DNA of 64,000 bases from a virus: the IMG/VR virus record IMGVR_UViG_3300042691_037543, positions 1-64,000 of that record. One strand, written 5' to 3'. How positions within the stretch are numbered: position 1 is the first letter of the stretch; each line of letters starts with the position of its first letter. Shown one piece after another: positions 1 through 35,360 of this stretch. Below the pieces are notes generated by a model. That model searched no databases. It was not told where the DNA came from and worked only from the letters and a program-made list of their open reading frames with translations. A program made the position numbers and the translations under genes.

Positions 1-19
1 GGGCGCTCTGAAACCCTGA

Positions 20-132
20 ACGAGCTAGTCATGTTTAAGAAAGGGCGACTGACTAGTGCGTACTGCGTTTCGATATCGTGCACGAGCTAGTCAGCGTTTC
101 GATATCGTGACTGACTAGTGCGTACTGCGTTT
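20..132. repeat. Nested direct repeats (62-bp period)
   Basis: ACGAGCTAGTCA at 20-31 and 82-93; GACTGACTAGTGCGTACTGCGTTT at 47-70 and 109-132; GCGTTTCGATATCGTG at 65-80 and 94-109. Confidence 0.9.
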
Positions 133-206
133 GGGGTATGGGCTCGGCACGAAGGCTGCTCTGACAGGCTCCCTAGAGCTCTGAGCAGAAAACCCTCTGA
201 ACCCTC

Positions 207-417: not shown

Positions 418-597
418 ATGAACGCCAAGGGTCTTATCAAGTCGGTTGCCCGCGTGTACGCCATCACGTCGCCGATCGCGGTCAGTTCGATGATCGTCGG
501 GTTTGGCGTAGGGTTCGTCGCGGGTACCCTCGCGAACCCTACGCACGGGTTCACCCGCGCCAACCCCTTCGCGAAGGGGGCCGGCGCCGCCAAGTAG
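418..597 (+). CDS. Small early membrane protein (59 aa)
   Basis: GGAAAAGGA RBS before ATG418; one hydrophobic Gly-rich segment (IAVSSMIVGFGVGFVAGTLA). Confidence 0.75.
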   Translation: MNAKGLIKSVARVYAITSPIAVSSMIVGFGVGFVAGTLANPTHGFTRANPFAKGAGAAK

Positions 598-781
598 CTC
601 CCTCGCGCCCCCTTCTCGAAGGGCCCCCTTCTCTACATCCTACGTCACCCCTAGCTAGGCATCGCGCCTAGCTTCTCTATACGCGTGCGATGCGTGTAGG
701 GTCGCCGGTACCCTCCCCCGGCAGAGCTCTTTTACAACTAGACGCGCGCGCCTACCCCTGGCGCCTCTCATGCTCGCGAGC

Positions 782-797
782 TGTTTCACGTGAAACA
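782..797. promoter_or_regulatory. parS: parS site 1
   Basis: Exact 16-bp palindrome TGTTTCACGTGAAACA, the chromosomal parS consensus; intergenic. Confidence 0.9.
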
Positions 798-925
798 GAC
801 TCCCGCGGCAAGAGGGTATGCCCAGGATGCAAGGTACCCGCGTGCGTCGCCTCTGCCAATACCCCCACCGGGCCCATTGAACCCGGTGGGGTCGATACCG
901 CGATGCCTCGCAGTACCTACCGCCG

Positions 926-941
926 TGTTTCACGTGAAACA
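926..941. promoter_or_regulatory. parS: parS site 2
   Basis: Second exact TGTTTCACGTGAAACA, nested in a longer inverted repeat (ACCTACCGCCGT 915-926 / ACGGCGGTAGGT 945-956). Confidence 0.9.
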
Positions 942-1027
942 GCTACGGCGGTAGGTTCTACGGTGCACCGCACCGTGTCTCGAAACCCGCGCCGCGATTC
1001 ACCGCGGCACTTGAAAGGAATTGCATC

Positions 1028-1933
1028 ATGGCCAAGTCCAACCGCCGCGCCCCCCGTACCACCATCCTTGCCACCATCGCGGATAGCGACACCGCCCCGG
1101 CCGACGAGGCCACCGTGCTCGACACCGCCCACGAGATTGCCGCGGACGCCGCGCACGAGCTCGCGGCCGACACCGCCGCCGAGTACACCGACACCGCGCC
1201 CGCGGTCACCGACCCCCACGGCGCGGCCGTGGCCTTTCTGGCCGCGTTCGACCCGGCGCGGTTGCCGCCGGGTATGCACGCGAAGTTCCTGTCCAGAGGG
1301 AACGTGACCCGTATGGGTCGCGTGGCTCTCGCGGCGGCCGGGGTCGAGCTGGACGGCCCGACGCACCGGGCATACAACGAGCTCCGTTCGGGATTCTGGT
1401 CCCGAATGGGCGGAACCCTCCCGCGGCGCGAAGGGGGCACGCCCCGTGCGCCCCGCACGGCCGGCGGTGCCCGCGGCGGGAACCGCGCCGCGCGCATCGC
1501 GGTGTTCGCGGCGAAGATTGCCGCGGCGTCGAAGAAGCTGGCCGGCATCCTCGCCACGGTTCCCGCGGGCGCCGCGCCCTTGGGTGATGGGCCCGAGTCA
1601 CTGGCCGCGGTGGCCGACATCACGGCGGGTGCCTTCGCTACCGTGGCCGCCGCGGTTGCCGGCCGCGCAGGGACGAACCCGGCCGGGTTCGAGGCGCCGC
1701 GAGTCGCTACGCCGGCCGTGGCGCCGGTTCCCCTCACCGCGGGAGGGTTCGCGGTGCTTACGCCCGCCGGACGGCGGTCCGCCGTCGAAGGGGGGTTGAT
1801 TGACGAAAACGACGCAGGCGAAAAGCTCACCATCCTGGCGTTGCCGGATGGTGGCAAGGTAGCCACCGTTCGCACGGCGAGCGGTGACCGCACTCGCATC
1901 GCGACGCGGTTTCTCGTCGGTGTGGCTGTGTAG
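1028..1933 (+). CDS. Early hypothetical protein, Ala-rich with acidic N-terminus and basic centre (301 aa)
   Basis: GAAAGGAA RBS, GC-rich third codon positions, followed by a hairpin at about 1946-1980. Confidence 0.8.
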   Translation: MAKSNRRAPRTTILATIADSDTAPADEATVLDTAHEIAADAAHELAADTAAEYTDTAPAVTDPHGAAVAFLAAFDPARLPPGMHAKFLSRGNVTRMGRVALAAAGVELDGPTHRAYNELRSGFWSRMGGTLPRREGGTPRAPRTAGGARGGNRAARIAVFAAKIAAASKKLAGILATVPAGAAPLGDGPESLAAVADITAGAFATVAAAVAGRAGTNPAGFEAPRVATPAVAPVPLTAGGFAVLTPAGRRSAVEGGLIDENDAGEKLTILALPDGGKVATVRTASGDRTRIATRFLVGVAV

Positions 1934-8306: not shown

Positions 8307-8910
8307 ATGAAAGCGTGGACGTGGCGTGACTTAGAGAGCGGCGTGGTCTTCGACCCAACCGAGGCAGGATGGCTCCCCATGCATCTAGCCAAAAGATTTA
8401 CGGATGCCAAGTGGTGCGCCGTGCGCCGTGCGCCGCGCGTACGATTGCACAATTAACCCACCAGCCTGGAAAGGCTTGATGTTCGTGCGAACCCGTGGGT
8501 TCGCGTGCACGCGGCTGATGACTGCGATGTACATGAACGAAGACGGCTGCAAGCGGGTTCTCAAGATGCAGCCCGACGACCTCGCGCGGTTTTATCAGAC
8601 AAAGCCGGCGTGGGCGCGAACCCGCACAATAGAGCCTTTGTGGACCCACATCGTCGGCACCCTGTACGGCGACGCCTATGCGGCTGCGGATGCGGTCATG
8701 CACCGCGTGCCGTGCATGGCGGGAATGTACCGATCGGTACTCCCTATCGCGCAGCATACAAGGCTAACTGAGCTCTACGCGCCTGATCGCACCACGCTCA
8801 GGGTGGTGTTCGCGTCGGTGTTTGGTCGAGCGAACCCGAGCCGCACACAGGTTGCGGAGTGGCTAGGCGCATCCTACGCCGCGTGGAGTATGACCCGTGA
8901 AATGGGATGA
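8307..8910 (+). pseudogene. Hypothetical gene split by a (GTGCGCC)3 repeat
   Basis: AAGGAG RBS and ATG8307 frame stops at 8456; removing one 7-mer joins it in frame to ORF 8404..8910, giving 198 aa. Confidence 0.65.
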
Positions 8911-9802: not shown

Positions 9803-10327
9803 GTGAACCAAACAATCGTGGACGTGCTCAACGAAGCCGCACGACGGTACAACCGCGTGTGGTGGGCAAACGCAATGGAGCTCACCCAGGCCGCGTGGCC
9901 CGACGTGCTCGTGGCCAGCCGTCGGTTCGACCCGGCTCGCGGCGACTACCGCGGTCTGCTGTACCACGTCGCCGTGCGGGCAATGGCGCGGTACCTGCGC
10001 TCGATGAGCGCCCCGGTGAGCGGGGACGTGTGGCGCAAGGGGAGGCTCGACGGGATTCTTAGAGAACCCGTCGAAGACGATTCTTTAACACTTGACGCCG
10101 CGCCCGAGCGGGTCGAATGTGTCGCGCGGGTTCGCGCCCGCGTCGAGGAAGTCCTCGGAGAAGAAGCGCCGTTCGCAGTGCGTTTGCTAACGCGCGAGAG
10201 CACGGCACAAGAGATTGCCGACGAGGCGGGTGTATCCACCAGTCTCGTATACAAGTGGACGATGGTGTGGCGTCGTGTTCTCAAGCACGACGCCGAGCTC
10301 CGTCTGCTGTGGGAGGAGTCCGACTGA
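9803..10327 (+). CDS. ECF/sigma70-like factor
   Basis: Region-2-like ELTQAAW...RRFDPARGDYRGLLY and region-4 HTH TAQEIADEAGVSTSLVYKW. Confidence 0.75.
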   Translation: MNQTIVDVLNEAARRYNRVWWANAMELTQAAWPDVLVASRRFDPARGDYRGLLYHVAVRAMARYLRSMSAPVSGDVWRKGRLDGILREPVEDDSLTLDAAPERVECVARVRARVEEVLGEEAPFAVRLLTRESTAQEIADEAGVSTSLVYKWTMVWRRVLKHDAELRLLWEESD

Positions 10328-10953
10328 TGGACATGGAACTCAAGACGATTACGGCTGCCGAGCTCCGCAGGCAGCCGGTGAACCCGAACGAGATGTCGAG
10401 CGACGAGCTCGTCATGCTCCAGAAGTCGATCAAGCGCTTCGGCATGATCGACCCTGTCATCGTGCAGCCCAACGAAGACGGGCTGACGTATGACATTCTC
10501 GACGGGCACCACCGACTCGAAGCCGCCATCGCGAACGGCATCGTCGGGATTCCGTGTGTCGTCGTGGGCGGGTACATGCCCGACGAGATCAACGCGCTTC
10601 AACTCGCGTTGAACAAGAACCGCGGGCACATCCGACTCGACACTGCGGAGACGATCCTCCGCGAGCTGGCGAGTATGGGGTGGGAGCGCACGGAGCTCGC
10701 GGTGACGGGGTTCAGCGACGACGAGCTCTCGCGCCTGCTCGATGACGCCGTCGAGCAGACTGCGAAGGCGGCGAAGGCGGTGTCGGTCGAAGCTCCTGCG
10801 GCCGAAGACAGACCCTTCACCCTGGAGCTCAAGTTCCACACACAAGAGCAGCTCCGCGCGGTGCGCAAGGCGCTCAAGCGGTCGAGCGGAGAGCTCAAGG
10901 ACGAAAGCCTCGGCATGTTGAACATGCTCGGGCTTCTGGAGGATGGACGATGA
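10327..10953 (+). CDS. ParB/Sulfiredoxin N-terminal domain protein 1
   Basis: NPNEM...SIKRFGMIDPVIV...ILDGHHRLEAA; C-terminal LAVTGFSDDEL typical of phage ParB-N proteins. Confidence 0.85.
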   Translation: MDMELKTITAAELRRQPVNPNEMSSDELVMLQKSIKRFGMIDPVIVQPNEDGLTYDILDGHHRLEAAIANGIVGIPCVVVGGYMPDEINALQLALNKNRGHIRLDTAETILRELASMGWERTELAVTGFSDDELSRLLDDAVEQTAKAAKAVSVEAPAAEDRPFTLELKFHTQEQLRAVRKALKRSSGELKDESLGMLNMLGLLEDGR

Positions 10954-28721: not shown

Positions 28722-30333
28722 CCTGAGCATCGAAGGGTTCTGCGGCATCGGCTCGCGCGCCAACGTGGCGTTCCCACAAACGGGCCTCGTGCTCGTGACG
28801 GGCCGCAACGGGTACGGCAAGAGTACGTTGATCGAATCCGTCTCCCACGCCGTGTGGGGCGAGGGTGTGTTTCGCACCGGGTCGCTGTGGGCGGACAAGG
28901 GCACCATCGAGCTGCACACACACGACGGCTCGATGGTGCACAGACAACGCGCGGGCTCGCGTACGTCGGGGCAGTTGTACCGGCACGGCAGTACGTCGCT
29001 GTTCGACACCGCTACGAAGATGAACGAGGCGGCAGCGACGGCGTTCGGGTCACACGACGCGTGGCGCACGACGCACATCATCGAGCCCAGCGACGCGGCG
29101 ATGTTCACGCGCGCAAGCGACACGGTGCGAAAGCACGTCTTGGAGGGGCTTCTCGGGCTGAGCGTCTACGACGACGCCCTGGTGAAGTCCCGCACGTTCC
29201 GCAAGGCAGCAGACCGGGTACGCGAAGACACGGCGAACAAGATCGCCGAGATTCGCGGTCGCCTGGAGACGCTCAACAACGTGTACAGCGCGTCCAAGTC
29301 GGCCCGCTCGAAAGAGGAGCTCACCGCGATCATCGACGACGCCACCGCGCGCATAGACGCCCTGCAACAGCGCATCACGGAGTGCGACGACAAGGTGGGC
29401 GATCTGCGGTCGTCGGCCCAAAACCTACGCAGCTCCGAAGCGGTGCTGGTTGCGAAGCTGCACAACATCCACCGCGTAGCCGTGCACGGCGACCGGGTGT
29501 GTCCCCTGTGCGGCAGCACCGTCGGTGACGACGTGGCCAAGGGGATCAATGATGCCGCGACTGCCGAAGAACACGAAGTGAAAGCCCAACTTGCGGAGCT
29601 GCGAGAGAAAGCCCACCTGTGCGAAGCCGAGTTGAGCACGCAGTTGCTCGTGCAGGGCGACACGCGCCGGGATCAGGTGGCCCAGCAAGGCCGGCAAGAC
29701 GCGGCGCGCCGCGAGCTCGACATCGTTCAGAAGGCCGAGGGCATTCGCGAGCGCATGGAGGCCGAGCAGGCACAGCTCGACGTGCTGAACGACAAGCTCG
29801 CGAACTCCATGACCGACGTAGACCTGTACGCGACCGCCGAGAAGATTCTCGGGGTGCGTGGTGTGCGCGCGCACATCCTCGACAACGCGGTCAACGCGCT
29901 CGGGCACTTCGCGGCGCAATGGATGTCGCAGCTCTCCGACAACGAGATGAGCGTCTCCGTGCAGTCCTACACGGAGAACACCCGCGGCGACGCCCGCAAC
30001 GCTATCTCCATCTCGCTGCTGCGCGGTGACCGCACGACGCCGTACGCCGCCTGCTCTCGCGGTGAGCAGCGCCGCATCGACATCGCCGTGACGCTCGCGC
30101 TGGCCGACATTCAGTCGTCCGCGACGGCGCACCCGACGGGCACGCTGTTCGTAGACGAGATCATGGACGGGCTCGACTACGCCGGGGCTCTCGCAACGCT
30201 GAGCTGTCTCGCGAAGATGGCAGCCAAGCGTTGCGTAGTGGTAATTACTCACAAGGCGAGCGTGCAGCTCGCCGCGAAGGCTGCGGCGCACTTCATGTTC
30301 GTGGCGCCGGGGGTTATCGAAAGGGCGAAGTAA
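28708..30333 (+). CDS. SbcC/Rad50/gp46-like ATPase
   Basis: GRNGYGKST, coiled coil with CPLCG Zn hook, CSRGE signature, LFVDE, VITH. Confidence 0.93.
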   Translation: MKISDLSIEGFCGIGSRANVAFPQTGLVLVTGRNGYGKSTLIESVSHAVWGEGVFRTGSLWADKGTIELHTHDGSMVHRQRAGSRTSGQLYRHGSTSLFDTATKMNEAAATAFGSHDAWRTTHIIEPSDAAMFTRASDTVRKHVLEGLLGLSVYDDALVKSRTFRKAADRVREDTANKIAEIRGRLETLNNVYSASKSARSKEELTAIIDDATARIDALQQRITECDDKVGDLRSSAQNLRSSEAVLVAKLHNIHRVAVHGDRVCPLCGSTVGDDVAKGINDAATAEEHEVKAQLAELREKAHLCEAELSTQLLVQGDTRRDQVAQQGRQDAARRELDIVQKAEGIRERMEAEQAQLDVLNDKLANSMTDVDLYATAEKILGVRGVRAHILDNAVNALGHFAAQWMSQLSDNEMSVSVQSYTENTRGDARNAISISLLRGDRTTPYAACSRGEQRRIDIAVTLALADIQSSATAHPTGTLFVDEIMDGLDYAGALATLSCLAKMAAKRCVVVITHKASVQLAAKAAAHFMFVAPGVIERAK

Positions 30334-31010
30334 TGAGCGACCGCGTGGAGTTTCAGAAGGTAGGCAACCTGACGGTCGGGCTCGTCCCGCTCAGCCGGCT
30401 GGTGCAGCGTCGGACGAACTACCGACAGATGAGCGACCGCGACTACGCGGCGCTCAAGACGGCGATCTCCACGTTCGGGTTCAGCACGGTCATCGCCGTG
30501 CGGCTCGCTGCCGACGGTGAGCACTACGAAGTCATCGACGGCCACCACCGCTGGCGCGCGGCGAAGGAGCTGGAGATGGACAGCATCCCGGCGGCCCTGG
30601 TCAACACCGACGACGACATGGCCGACGTAGCCATGCTCTCTTTCAACGTCTCGGGCGACGTGTTGCCCGACGTGCTGATGGAGATGCTCCGCGAGATGAG
30701 CTCGCGCGTCGCGTCCTCCGTGGTGGAGGCGCACGCGGGGTTCAGCGATGGGTTCATCGAGGAAGCGATCCGCGCCGCCGAGGGCGCCGTGTCGGCCGTC
30801 GCCCCGCCGAAGGAACCCAAGGCACGCGCGACTCCGAAGGAGCCCACCGTCGATCGCATCGAGCCGGTGCCGACCATCACCGTGCTGCTCACGCGGCAGA
30901 TGGCCCGAGCCATCGAGGCGATTCGCAAGGACCGCAGCTACGACTCGTCGATGAGCGACGCCGACGTGCTCACGGCTGTGATGCTCGATACGGCGATGGG
31001 CGATGCCTAA
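30333..31010 (+). CDS. ParB/Sulfiredoxin N-terminal domain protein 2
   Basis: NYRQM...AISTFGF...YEVIDGHHRWRAAKEL. Confidence 0.85.
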   Translation: MSDRVEFQKVGNLTVGLVPLSRLVQRRTNYRQMSDRDYAALKTAISTFGFSTVIAVRLAADGEHYEVIDGHHRWRAAKELEMDSIPAALVNTDDDMADVAMLSFNVSGDVLPDVLMEMLREMSSRVASSVVEAHAGFSDGFIEEAIRAAEGAVSAVAPPKEPKARATPKEPTVDRIEPVPTITVLLTRQMARAIEAIRKDRSYDSSMSDADVLTAVMLDTAMGDA

Positions 31011-34187: not shown

Positions 34188-35360
34188 ATGGAGCTCTCAC
34201 TCGAAAAGCACTTCACGAAGCTCTACCGCACTATGCTCGACAAGCCCGCGGAGGTATTCGCGCTCCGCGGCGCGGTTGGGGTGGCCATCGTGCACTGGCT
34301 GGATTCCGGCTGGAACGTGTACCTGCCCGGTGAACCGTTGGTGCGGCGTCACTGGGCCGATTACCCCGAAGCTCGTCAGGCTATCGAGGCGTTGGTGGTC
34401 CGTGTTGGTGGGATGCTTTTCGCTGGGCGCCCGCTGACGCACCCGAATGTGTCGATGAGCTGTGGTGAGCGTGGTGGGCCGGGAAAAGGGCGCTTGGTGT
34501 ACCGCGTTCGCGTCGGCGCGGACCAGGAGGTATTCGACGACGCGAACGCGGCAGCGCTGCGATGGATGATCGCCGTTGCCGAGTACGCGGAGACGCCTGC
34601 GGAGACGCCGGCCGAGCCCTACGTCCGCCCGCTCAACAAGCAAGACTTCGACGTGCACGACGAGATGAACCCCGACGGCACCGTCAGGTGCACGGTGTAC
34701 GCGCTTCGGAACGGCCAGGGGCTCCGTATCGCGTACTGGCCCTCCGAGGGGATGTACGAAGCGTACGATGTTAACGAGACGTTGCAGTACACGGGCTACT
34801 TCTGCGCGGTAGAGTTCGATGCCGCAATCGACAAGCTGCGGCAGGTTGCTGTGCAGTCATTGGCTGCGTATCATCTGCCTTTCAAGCTAGACGGCGCGAC
34901 CCGCCGCGCCGTCGAGAGCCCTGACGGCAAGCGCTGGACGTTCGCGTCTGCGGAGAACGCGCAGCGCTATTGGTTGGCGAGCATCGCGGGGCACATACCG
35001 CCGGCCACCACCCCGGAGCCCGCCGAGCCTAGTGCGGTGCCGGTCGAGTCCACCGACGACGAAGGAGGGAAGAAGTACGACGGCGGCAAGCCCGACTACG
35101 CACTCCTTCCGCCGCTCGCGATCGATGCGATGGTGCGCGTGCTCACCTACGGGGCGAAGAAGTACGGCCCCGACAACTGGCGCAAGGTGCCCGACCTGCG
35201 GCGCCGGTACCTCTCCGCGCTGCTGCGGCATGTCTTCGCGCACATGCGGGGCGAGACGCGCGACCCCGAGACGGGGGAGAACCACCTCGCGCACGCGCTG
35301 TGCTGCGTGGCCTTCATTCTTGAGCTCGACGAGGAGAGCGCGACCTCTGGGAAGGCGTGA
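34188..35360 (+). CDS. Protein with C-terminal dATP/dGTP diphosphohydrolase (DUF5664-like) domain
   Basis: GKKYDGGKPDYALLP...VLTYGAKKYGPDNWRK...ALLRH...DPETGENHLAHA. Confidence 0.88.
   Translation: MELSLEKHFTKLYRTMLDKPAEVFALRGAVGVAIVHWLDSGWNVYLPGEPLVRRHWADYPEARQAIEALVVRVGGMLFAGRPLTHPNVSMSCGERGGPGKGRLVYRVRVGADQEVFDDANAAALRWMIAVAEYAETPAETPAEPYVRPLNKQDFDVHDEMNPDGTVRCTVYALRNGQGLRIAYWPSEGMYEAYDVNETLQYTGYFCAVEFDAAIDKLRQVAVQSLAAYHLPFKLDGATRRAVESPDGKRWTFASAENAQRYWLASIAGHIPPATTPEPAEPSAVPVESTDDEGGKKYDGGKPDYALLPPLAIDAMVRVLTYGAKKYGPDNWRKVPDLRRRYLSALLRHVFAHMRGETRDPETGENHLAHALCCVAFILELDEESATSGKA

What the first reader, a model, noticed from the sequence alone, without database searches (positions are those of the whole stretch)
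782..956. Phage carries two perfect bacterial centromere (parS) sites in its early region
Seen: TGTTTCACGTGAAACA occurs twice, 144 bp apart, in intergenic DNA, each with an extended palindromic flank. Known: this is the consensus bound by chromosomal ParB (Spo0J) CTPases, which spread on DNA, load SMC and engage ParA; ParABS is essential in Myxococcus and Caulobacter. No parA is visible in the window, and the two phage ParB-N proteins show no obvious HTH. Inference: the phage mimics the host centromere to recruit host ParB/SMC. This could position or segregate its DNA, coat early promoters, or titrate ParB and stall host division. This is the strongest candidate for an undescribed system here.
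Basis: partly seen in the sequence, partly recalled or inferred. Interest (0 to 1): 0.85.

Follow-up and report, generated by a model that had tools for sequence, protein, structure and literature searches.

The report
Host-type centromere sites on a phage
An uncultured 85-kb phage with no partition genes of its own carries two exact copies of the bacterial chromosome centromere site (parS) at the head of its early genes, so it most likely loads the host's ParB protein onto its own DNA, as Bacillus phage phi29 is already known to do.

Summary
Observation confirmed. TGTTTCACGTGAAACA occurs perfectly at 782-797 and 926-941 and nowhere else in the complete 84,736-bp genome. Composition predicts 2.5e-6 perfect sites per genome. 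Both sites lie in non-coding DNA between the leftward terminase/late block and the rightward early/replication block.

The whole genome has no ParA, integrase, resolvase, HTH_3 repressor or protelomerase. Its two ParB_N proteins score below the ParB family cut-off. They carry DGHHR in place of GERRxR, and the helix that reads parS in ParB is acidic in them. They are therefore poor candidates for binding the sites.

The one sequence-readable relative keeps both sites inside a conserved non-coding island. In IMG/VR the motif hits at least 119 stretches, against 2 and 39 for two control palindromes. 17 of 80 listed loci hold two or more sites, and 0 of 67 records examined encode a canonical ParB.

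Best reading: orphan loading sites for the host's ParB. The downstream effect (positioning or inheritance, titration, early-gene control) is inferred. This is not undescribed: phi29 carries five host-type parS sites used by host Spo0J. This scan has also noted orphan parS on other phages. The host is unknown and binding is untested.

The parts
782..797 (.). parS site 1: perfect 16-bp chromosomal-type parS, the core of an 18-bp palindrome at 781-798
   Evidence: identical in relative L003/L126
926..941 (.). parS site 2: perfect 16-bp chromosomal-type parS, ending 86 bp upstream of the ATG of ORF 1028
   Evidence: identical in relative L003/L126
916..955 (.). Extended imperfect palindrome around site 2: 10-bp arms CCTACCGCCG / CGGCGGTAGG with a 4-nt bulge
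   Evidence: I1; -18.6 kcal/mol, z -5.2; the arms are kept in L003 and only the bulge differs
701..1027 (.). Conserved non-coding island that holds both sites and a 10-bp-stem hairpin between them (863-891). It is 95-99% identical to the relative, while the flanks are 69-74% (left) and 77-92% (right)
   Evidence: (RNA fold of 671-1030, z -8.1)
418..597 (+). Small 59-aa ORF upstream of the sites. In the relative it is replaced by unrelated small ORFs (a variable cassette)
   Evidence: no family; joint 415->692 with 231 other letters
1028..1933 (+). First long early gene downstream of the sites (301 aa, no known family). It served as the anchor for finding relatives
   Evidence: 5 proteins in 5.8 billion; model pLDDT 55, not usable
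10327..10953 (+). ParB_N paralogue 1 (208 aa, DGHHR motif). Judged unlikely to be the parS reader and listed because it was considered
   Evidence: (TIGR00180 41.9 bits against a cut-off of 58.45)
30333..31010 (+). ParB_N paralogue 2 (225 aa, DGHHR motif, acidic helix where ParB has its recognition helix). Judged unlikely to be the parS reader
   Evidence: (40.7 bits against 58.45)

Best explanation
The two sites are orphan, host-type parS sites, meaning loading sites for the chromosomal ParB (Spo0J) CTP clamp of the unidentified host. After phage DNA enters the cell, host ParB dimers would nucleate on the two palindromes, close around the DNA with CTP and slide into the flanks. Those flanks are the early control region on one side and the terminase side of the divergent junction on the other. 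The result would be a partition complex on phage DNA. That complex would couple a non-integrating, lytic-looking genome to the host's ParA/SMC/anchoring machinery. The phage DNA would then be placed, and when lysis is delayed inherited, like a chromosome origin, as shown for phi29. Shown here: the sites, their uniqueness, their position, the absence of phage ParA and canonical ParB, retention in close relatives, and enrichment and clustering of this motif in viral contigs that lack par genes. Inferred: binding by host ParB, spreading, and the physiological outcome.
For: (1) Both sites match the consensus 16 of 16, and 2.5e-6 perfect sites are expected per genome. The same 16-mer is used as the parS consensus for diverse phyla (PMC10197239 methods passage; PMC7022226 Table 1 passage; 27 papers hold the string).
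(2) The complete genome (direct terminal repeats, CheckV 100%) gave 0 matches to CbiA or AAA_31 ParA families. It has only two ParB_N proteins, both below the TIGR00180 cut-off.
(3) Those proteins have DGHHR instead of GERRxR. The stretch that the family profile aligns to the ParB recognition helix is acidic in the 67-sequence alignment.
(4) The sites sit in a non-coding island that is 95-99% identical to the relative G004, while the neighbouring sequence is 69-92% identical. Both sites are perfect there.
(5) In IMG/VR the motif hits at least 119 stretches (capped), against 2 for the reversed palindrome and 39 for a centre-swapped palindrome. 17 of 80 listed parS loci have two or more sites, against 0 of 39 and 0 of 2 for the controls.
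(6) 0 of 17 multi-site records match TIGR00180, ParB_N or AAA_31. 0 of 50 single-site records reach the ParB cut-off, and 2 of 50 have weak ParB_N-like matches.
(7) 7 of the 17 multi-site records encode a protein-primed PolB as phi29 does, and 10 do not, including complete 59.7-kb and 61.5-kb phages.
(8) Precedent: phi29 carries five parS sites and uses host Spo0J (PMC2731898 passages).
(9) No integrase, resolvase, HTH_3 or protelomerase was found, so the phage looks virulent, like phi29.
Against: No binding data exist and the host is unknown. It therefore cannot be shown that the host has ParABS or uses this consensus.
Conservation is documented only in close relatives. One sequence-readable record, G004, has 100% identical TerL. 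For the Logan variants the full list of differences was not shown (668 changes unlisted).
The only more distant phage with the upstream region covered (G002, TerL 51%) lacks parS, but its gene order there differs. Homologues of ORF 1028 at 42-45% identity could not be inspected upstream.
The phage does encode two ParB-fold proteins whose fold continues into an HTH-like domain, so a phage-encoded reader is not excluded.
The island is densely palindromic, so a structural RNA or DNA role could coexist.
The IMG/VR enrichment may include prophage flanks or misclassified host DNA, and the two controls differ from parS in dinucleotide content.
Confidence: 0.55

Rival explanations
1. ParB sponge. Host ParB does bind, but the purpose is titration. 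As the phage replicates to high copy, its parS copies outnumber the few chromosomal sites. They pull ParB (and with it SMC loading and ParB-dependent division control) away from the host origin, which stalls segregation and division and keeps a larger cell for phage production.
For: The site evidence is the same as for the main reading. The phage has its own replication set of PolA, helicase and SbcC-like protein, so parS copy number would rise automatically. No temperate-type functions were found, which makes an inheritance function less obviously useful.
Against: Two sites per genome is a weak sponge early in infection. Nothing in the sequence distinguishes titration from positioning. The phi29 precedent is about segregation, not titration. 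That extra parS copies perturb division in some species is recalled, not checked here.
Confidence: 0.13
2. Host ParB acts as a regulator of the phage early operon. The sites lie 86 and 230 bp upstream of the first long early gene. Bound or spreading ParB would then repress or gate early transcription, tying lytic development to the host cell cycle or ParB level (a lytic-deferment switch).
For: Both sites lie in the leader or promoter region of ORF 1028, in a conserved island. A contig from an RNA library covers 671-2495, across both sites and into the early genes; this is a weak hint that the region is transcribed, because DNA can be present in such libraries. Repression of promoters next to high-affinity parS sites by chromosomal ParB is the subject of PMC5521831 (title and start of abstract in a search listing only).
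Against: No promoter could be located: there were 0 sigma-70-like hits in 1-2700. ParB spreading is usually a weak silencer (recalled). Many other parS-bearing viral loci have sites inside long open frames rather than at promoters.
Confidence: 0.12
3. The phage's own ParB-fold proteins (10327-10953 and/or 30333-31010) bind the two sites. This would be a private, ParA-less ParB/KorB-like clamp or regulator system that happens to use the chromosomal consensus.
For: Two ParB_N proteins are encoded. The ParB-2 model (pLDDT 91) superposes on KorB, Noc and the Caulobacter ParB-parS complex over 130-142 residues, including the start of the DNA-binding domain (Z 10.9-12.9). The family profile aligns through the ParB HTH.
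Against: Both score below the TIGR00180 cut-off (41.9 and 40.7 against 58.45 bits). DGHHR replaces GERRxR. The residues aligned to the recognition helix are acidic in both paralogues and across 67 family members. Both genes lie 9 and 29 kb from the sites. 0 of 17 other multi-parS viral records have any ParB_N protein, so phage parS does not generally travel with this family.
Confidence: 0.1
4. No ParB is involved. The palindromes would act as nucleic-acid structures (leader-RNA hairpins, terminators or attenuators, or cruciforms of an origin or packaging region), or they would be a neutral remnant of captured host DNA.
For: The 671-1030 stretch folds far better than shuffles (z -8.1). Each site is embedded in a longer inverted repeat, and another hairpin lies between them. 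The junction region is rich in other repeats.
Against: A structural role does not require the exact 16-of-16 ParB consensus twice (2.5e-6 expected). No Rfam family matches and no intrinsic terminator was called on the + strand at the sites. The same motif is enriched and clustered in unrelated viral contigs, while composition-matched palindromes are not. Higher conservation than the flanks argues against neutral DNA.
Confidence: 0.07

Closest known systems
Host-type parS sites of virulent Bacillus phages phi29 and Nf (host Spo0J; Meijer et al. 2005 as summarised in PMC2731898)
   Same: A lytic-type phage without its own partition system carries copies of the host chromosome's parS. The host ParB homologue is used to move the phage genome with the host chromosome (PMC2731898 passages). 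7 of 17 multi-parS IMG/VR records found here encode the phi29-type protein-primed polymerase.
   Different: phi29 is a roughly 19-kb protein-primed podovirus of a spore former. It has five sites along the genome and acts together with Spo0A boxes. This is an unrelated 84.7-kb, 65% G+C, baseplate-bearing phage with PolA. It has two perfect sites 144 bp apart at the early/late divergence point, each in a longer palindrome. The host is unknown and no link to sporulation is known. The original 2005 paper was not held.
Chromosomal ParABS: parS bound by ParB/Spo0J CTP clamps near oriC
   Same: The 16-bp sequence is identical to the consensus used for Bacillus, Caulobacter, Hyphomonas, Burkholderia and others.
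   Different: No parA or parB is encoded in cis. The replicon is a virus.
Self-encoded partition cassettes of plasmid prophages (P1, N15, mycobacteriophage parABS)
   Same: Centromere-like sites on a phage genome.
   Different: Those phages encode their own ParA and ParB and use private site sequences. Here neither protein is present, the site is the chromosomal consensus, and no prophage functions were found. The details of P1 and N15 are recalled; P1 ParB is mentioned in PMC12704722.
KorB-OB operator system of plasmid RK2 (a ParB-family CTP-dependent repressor)
   Same: A ParB-fold protein and palindromic sites in control regions. The ParB-2 model superposes best on KorB over 141 residues (Z 12.9).
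   Different: The phage proteins lack basic residues in the helix aligned to the DNA-reading helix. The sites are the ParB consensus, not OB.

Membership tests
Chromosomal-type parS (ParB/Spo0J binding site) | 16-bp palindrome matching TGTTNCACGTGAAACA | tested here: met
   16 of 16 positions at 782-797 and 926-941. Consensus as printed in PMC7022226 Table 1 and PMC10197239.
Chromosomal-type parS (ParB/Spo0J binding site) | Bound by a ParB CTPase that nucleates and spreads | not testable with these tools
   Needs EMSA, BLI or ChIP with the host ParB. The host was not identified.
Complete ParABS partition cassette (chromosome, plasmid or plasmid prophage) | A ParA (Walker-type ATPase) gene on the same replicon | tested here: not met
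   0 matches to PF01656 and PF13614 at E<=1 in the complete 84,736-bp genome. The controls rang in 14 of 14 genomes.
Complete ParABS partition cassette (chromosome, plasmid or plasmid prophage) | A canonical ParB (TIGR00180 above cut-off, GERRxR box, basic HTH recognition helix) | tested here: not met
   Two ParB_N proteins score 41.9 and 40.7 bits against a cut-off of 58.45. They have DGHHR in place of GERRxR. The stretch aligned to the recognition helix is acidic.
phi29-type exploitation of host ParB by phage-borne parS | Host-type parS on a phage that lacks its own ParA and canonical ParB | tested here: met
phi29-type exploitation of host ParB by phage-borne parS | Virulent-type genome (no integration or plasmid-prophage functions) | tested here: met
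   0 matches to Phage_integrase, Resolvase, HTH_3 and ResT/TelK. Absence of these markers does not prove a strictly lytic life.
phi29-type exploitation of host ParB by phage-borne parS | Host Spo0J/ParB-dependent segregation of the phage genome (into the prespore in phi29) | not testable with these tools
   Experimental; the host is unknown.
phi29-type exploitation of host ParB by phage-borne parS | Evolutionary kinship with phi29-like phages (protein-primed PolB, genome of about 20 kb with ITRs) | tested here: not met
   The genome is 84.7 kb with a PolA-type polymerase (phrog_17), baseplate and tape-measure genes. It works like phi29's sites, but the phage is not a relative.
KorB/Noc-like private ParB-family regulator with its own sites | A ParB-fold protein with a DNA-reading HTH matched to the sites | tested here: inconclusive
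   The fold extends into an HTH-like domain, but the aligned recognition stretch is acidic.

The most novel reading that the evidence does not exclude
Capture of the host's ParB by orphan consensus parS would be a general, convergently evolved phage strategy, well beyond phi29-like phages. In this large, high-G+C, apparently virulent phage the tandem pair at the early/late divergence point would make the incoming genome pass as a chromosome origin. It would then be positioned and inherited as an unintegrated carrier-state genome. It might also be treated as 'self' by SMC-family surveillance of foreign DNA, without any phage-encoded partition protein.
Probability: 0.2. Interest if true: 0.75.

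Novelty: new member of a known kind. Interest (0 to 1): 0.45.

Why it matters
If host ParB really loads on this phage, a large lytic-looking phage of a high-G+C host uses the near-universal bacterial centromere as a handle on host chromosome biology. So far this has been shown only for phi29 in a spore former.

The small survey made here points the same way. The motif is enriched at least 3-fold and at least 60-fold over two control palindromes. It occurs in clusters. None of the 67 viral records examined has a canonical ParB. This suggests the trick is recurrent in unrelated phages. That would make ParB a common target of phage exploitation and give a simple sequence marker for phages able to persist unintegrated.

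For this single locus the finding is a further example rather than a new principle.

Tried and rejected
Relatives:
- blastn (distant mode) of the first 8 kb against cultured phages found no match.
- tblastn with TerL and the major capsid protein found only remote hits of 30% identity or less, to phages of many hosts. No cultured relative or host follows from them.
- ORF 1028 has only 5 proteins in the 5.8-billion set.
- The metagenome scan returned only a fragment of the same phage.
- The viral scan with the alignment added L132 (45% identity), but that contig starts inside the gene, so its upstream region is missing.
- TerL relatives G001 and G003 are fragments without the region.

Host:
- Two genome-contig scans (TerL alignment, endolysin-like protein) found nothing.
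- No tRNA and no WhiB were found.
- The Atlas rows for the endolysin-like protein name Actinomycetota most often. Together with 65% G+C this is only a weak hint.
- Run labels ('fungus metagenome', 'wastewater metagenome') say nothing about the host.

Other checks:
- Z-genome idea: a MazZ-like domain is present but there is no PurZ, so the idea was dropped.
- ORF 1028 as a ParB adaptor: the model is too poor to search with (pLDDT 55) and the Atlas gave nothing usable.
- Rfam found nothing at the sites.
- The sigma-70 scan found no promoter in 1-2700, so no promoter overlap can be claimed.
- Parts of the stretch without cover in runs X4 and X8, and the short parS-only pieces of other organisms' contigs there, were not interpreted.
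- The claim in earlier notes that cultured Gordonia phages carry parS could not be tested: the 'phages' collection cannot be scanned for a 16-mer.

Literature:
- No description of host-type parS on phages other than phi29/Nf turned up in searches. This covers only the held library.
- Supplements are closed. The SI of PMC12704722 (survey of phage ParB-fold proteins) might bear on the DGHHR family.
- Livny 2007 and Lin & Grossman 1998 are recalled, not read.
- Meijer 2005 is not held.

Full report
WHAT IS THERE

The window is the first 64 kb of a single 84,736-bp virus record. IMG/VR classes it as having direct terminal repeats and CheckV rates it 100% complete. Its first 69 bases recur at its end.

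TGTTTCACGTGAAACA occurs perfectly at 782-797 and 926-941. With up to 3 mismatches these are the only 2 matches in the window. The shuffle expectation is 0.11, and 1 of 100 shuffles reached 2 at that loose setting. In the whole genome nothing else comes closer than 4 mismatches. From base composition, 2.5e-6 perfect sites are expected per genome.

Site 1 is the core of an 18-bp palindrome. Site 2 lies between 10-bp inverted arms with a 4-nt bulge. A further hairpin with a 10-bp stem lies between the sites.

GENOME CONTEXT

A crude GC3-based gene map and family scans give two blocks.

- Rightward early/replication block, from about 1.0 to 38 kb. It includes a MoxR-like ATPase, a DUF2201/VWA protein, a ParB_N protein, an HTH protein, a helicase, a PolA-type polymerase, an SbcC-like ATPase and a second ParB_N protein.
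- Leftward late block, from about 83.7 down to 38.7 kb. It includes large terminase, portal, major head protein, tape measure and baseplate genes.

The two sites therefore sit at the divergence point of the two blocks. They are about 1.75 kb from the terminase start codon when counted across the record ends. They lie 86 and 230 bp upstream of the first long early gene (1028-1933, no family). About 1.4 kb of repeat-rich non-coding DNA and a small variable ORF (418-597) lie in between.

No tRNA was found. No Rfam family matches at the sites. No sigma-70-like promoter was found in 1-2700.

DOES THE PHAGE HAVE ITS OWN PARTITION SYSTEM?

It does not. The complete genome has 0 matches to the ParA families CbiA and AAA_31. 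It also has 0 matches to tyrosine integrase, serine recombinase, HTH_3 or protelomerase families. It therefore looks virulent.

It has two ParB_N proteins. Their true lengths are 208 aa and 225 aa, and they are 30% identical to each other.

- Both score below the curated cut-off of TIGR00180: 41.9 and 40.7 bits against 58.45.
- Both read DGHHR where ParB has GERRxR.
- The second was modelled from 67 homologues (pLDDT 91). Residues 9-156 superpose on KorB, Noc and the Caulobacter ParB-parS complex (Z 10.9-12.9, 130-142 residues aligned). The fold therefore does run into an HTH-like domain.
- The family profile aligns through the ParB HTH. However, the stretch opposite ParB's recognition helix is acidic in both paralogues and across the family.

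I conclude, by inference, that these proteins are poor candidates for reading parS.

RELATIVES

Only one readable relative exists in IMG/VR: G004, seen as L003/L126. Both sites are perfect there and at the same place.

Per-100-bp identity between the two phages:

- about 100% over terminase and the upstream non-coding DNA
- 69-74% over 401-700, where the small ORF is replaced
- 95-99% over 701-1100, the parS island
- 77-92% in ORF 1028

So the sites lie in a conserved non-coding island.

A JGI contig spans the record ends and both sites. Logan contigs of a 2025 run reproduce the G004-type variant. A contig from a metatranscriptome library covers 671-2495 as a third variant. No change inside either site is listed, but 668 changes were not shown, so this is weak evidence.

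Deeper conservation could not be tested:

- G002 (TerL 51%) lacks parS but has a different gene order upstream of terminase.
- G001 and G003 are fragments.
- L132 starts inside the ORF 1028 homologue.

IS THIS PECULIAR TO THIS PHAGE?

It is not. The motif read backwards (same composition, also a palindrome) returned 2 stretches. A centre-swapped palindrome returned 39.

17 of the 80 listed parS loci hold two or more sites, against 0 of 2 and 0 of 39 for the controls.

Of the 17 multi-site records, 0 match TIGR00180, ParB_N or AAA_31. Seven of them encode a protein-primed PolB, as phi29 does. Ten do not, including complete phages of 59.7 and 61.5 kb.

One of these, G013, has two sites 156 bp apart in an intergenic gap about 1.7 kb upstream of a small-terminase-like gene.

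Of 50 single-site records examined (13 more were not examined), 0 reach the ParB cut-off and 2 have weak ParB_N-like matches.

Caveats: many records are fragments, some may contain host DNA, and the controls differ from parS in dinucleotide content.

WHAT IS KNOWN

The 16-mer is the standard chromosomal parS consensus.

Passages of PMC2731898 state that phi29 contains five parS sites. They also state that evidence exists for host Spo0J segregating the phi29 genome into the prespore (citing Meijer et al. 2005, which is not held).

A 2025 survey of the ParB-CTPase fold reports many divergent phage ParB-like proteins with other nucleotide preferences (PMC12704722 passages).

Six literature searches found no other description of host-type parS on phages.

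Earlier notes of this scan report orphan host-type parS on several other phages. I treat these as leads. My IMG/VR survey is an independent check of their general drift. Their claim about cultured Gordonia phages was not tested.

MECHANISM

Most likely (0.55), the sites load the host's ParB. The clamp spreads over the early/late junction and ties the phage genome to the host's segregation machinery, as in phi29.

The rivals that also assume host ParB are a sponge (0.13) and a regulatory gate on early genes (0.12). A private phage ParB reader gets 0.10. A ParB-independent structural or neutral role gets 0.07.

Shown: the sites, their position, the absence of cognate genes, local conservation, and enrichment elsewhere. 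Inferred: binding, spreading and outcome.

The host remains unknown. The only weak hint is Actinomycetota, from the Atlas rows for the endolysin-like protein.

VERDICT

This is a further, unrelated example of a trick already described for phi29, so I class it as a new member of a known kind, of moderate interest. The broader pattern of recurrent orphan parS on phages deserves a systematic study.

Noticed in passing
G000 80943-83699 (- strand; L124:4943-7699; beyond the window's end): The large terminase is 918 aa, against 502 aa in relative L127. The extra C-terminal part of about 400 aa begins with Cys and ends ...HN followed by Cys, which looks like an intein with a homing-endonuclease insert. 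The intein reading is by eye and recall; no family scan of the insert was made.
   Followed up: partly
window 1-140 and G000 84500-84736 (L124:8500-8736): A cluster of repeats straddles the record ends. ACGAGCTAGTCACGTTT-like units occur at least 3 times in L124, with further copies in two 62-nt tandem units at 3-126. There is also a perfect 16-bp inverted repeat (L124 8594-8609 / 8636-8651). This is a candidate packaging, origin or regulator site.
   Followed up: no
window 418-597: The small 59-aa ORF just upstream of the parS island is replaced by unrelated small ORFs in the close relative (69-74% identity over 401-700; a joint 415->692 with 231 other letters in a Logan contig). It is a variable cassette next to a conserved island.
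   Followed up: partly
window 517-531 and 701-715, also by eye near 832-843, 2090-2140 and 2570-2580: A recurring GGTACCC-containing motif (GTCGCGGGTACCCTC / GTCGCCGGTACCCTC) occurs in the early intergenic regions. It may be an operator or promoter element of the early genes (D4; the other copies were seen by eye).
   Followed up: no
window 34188-35360 (+): A 390-aa protein carries a dATP/dGTP diphosphohydrolase N-terminal domain (PF18909, MazZ-like) at residues 293-383, but the genome has no PurZ-type adenylosuccinate synthetase. It is therefore probably not a 2-aminoadenine genome.
   Followed up: partly
window 10327-10953 and 30333-31010: Two paralogous ParB-fold proteins have a DGHHR motif and an acidic helix where ParB reads DNA. 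The family has 1156 relatives at E<=0.001 among 1.84 billion representatives. Its function is unknown.
   Followed up: partly
L024 2657-3444 and L063 10535-11462 (IMG/VR fragments): Two related-looking viral fragments (about 51-54% G+C) each carry five perfect parS sites within 0.8-0.9 kb of mostly non-coding DNA. Some flanks are similar. Neither has ParB, ParB_N or ParA on the record.
   Followed up: partly
L058 3643-3814 (record G013, complete 59.7-kb phage, 43.5% G+C): An unrelated complete phage has two perfect parS sites 156 bp apart in an intergenic gap about 1.7 kb upstream of a small-terminase-like gene. The arrangement resembles the one studied here.
   Followed up: partly
window 671-1030: The whole leader region folds far better than shuffled sequence as RNA (-173.7 kcal/mol, z -8.1). 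A contig from an RNA library starts at 671 and runs through it. A structured 5' leader is possible.
   Followed up: no
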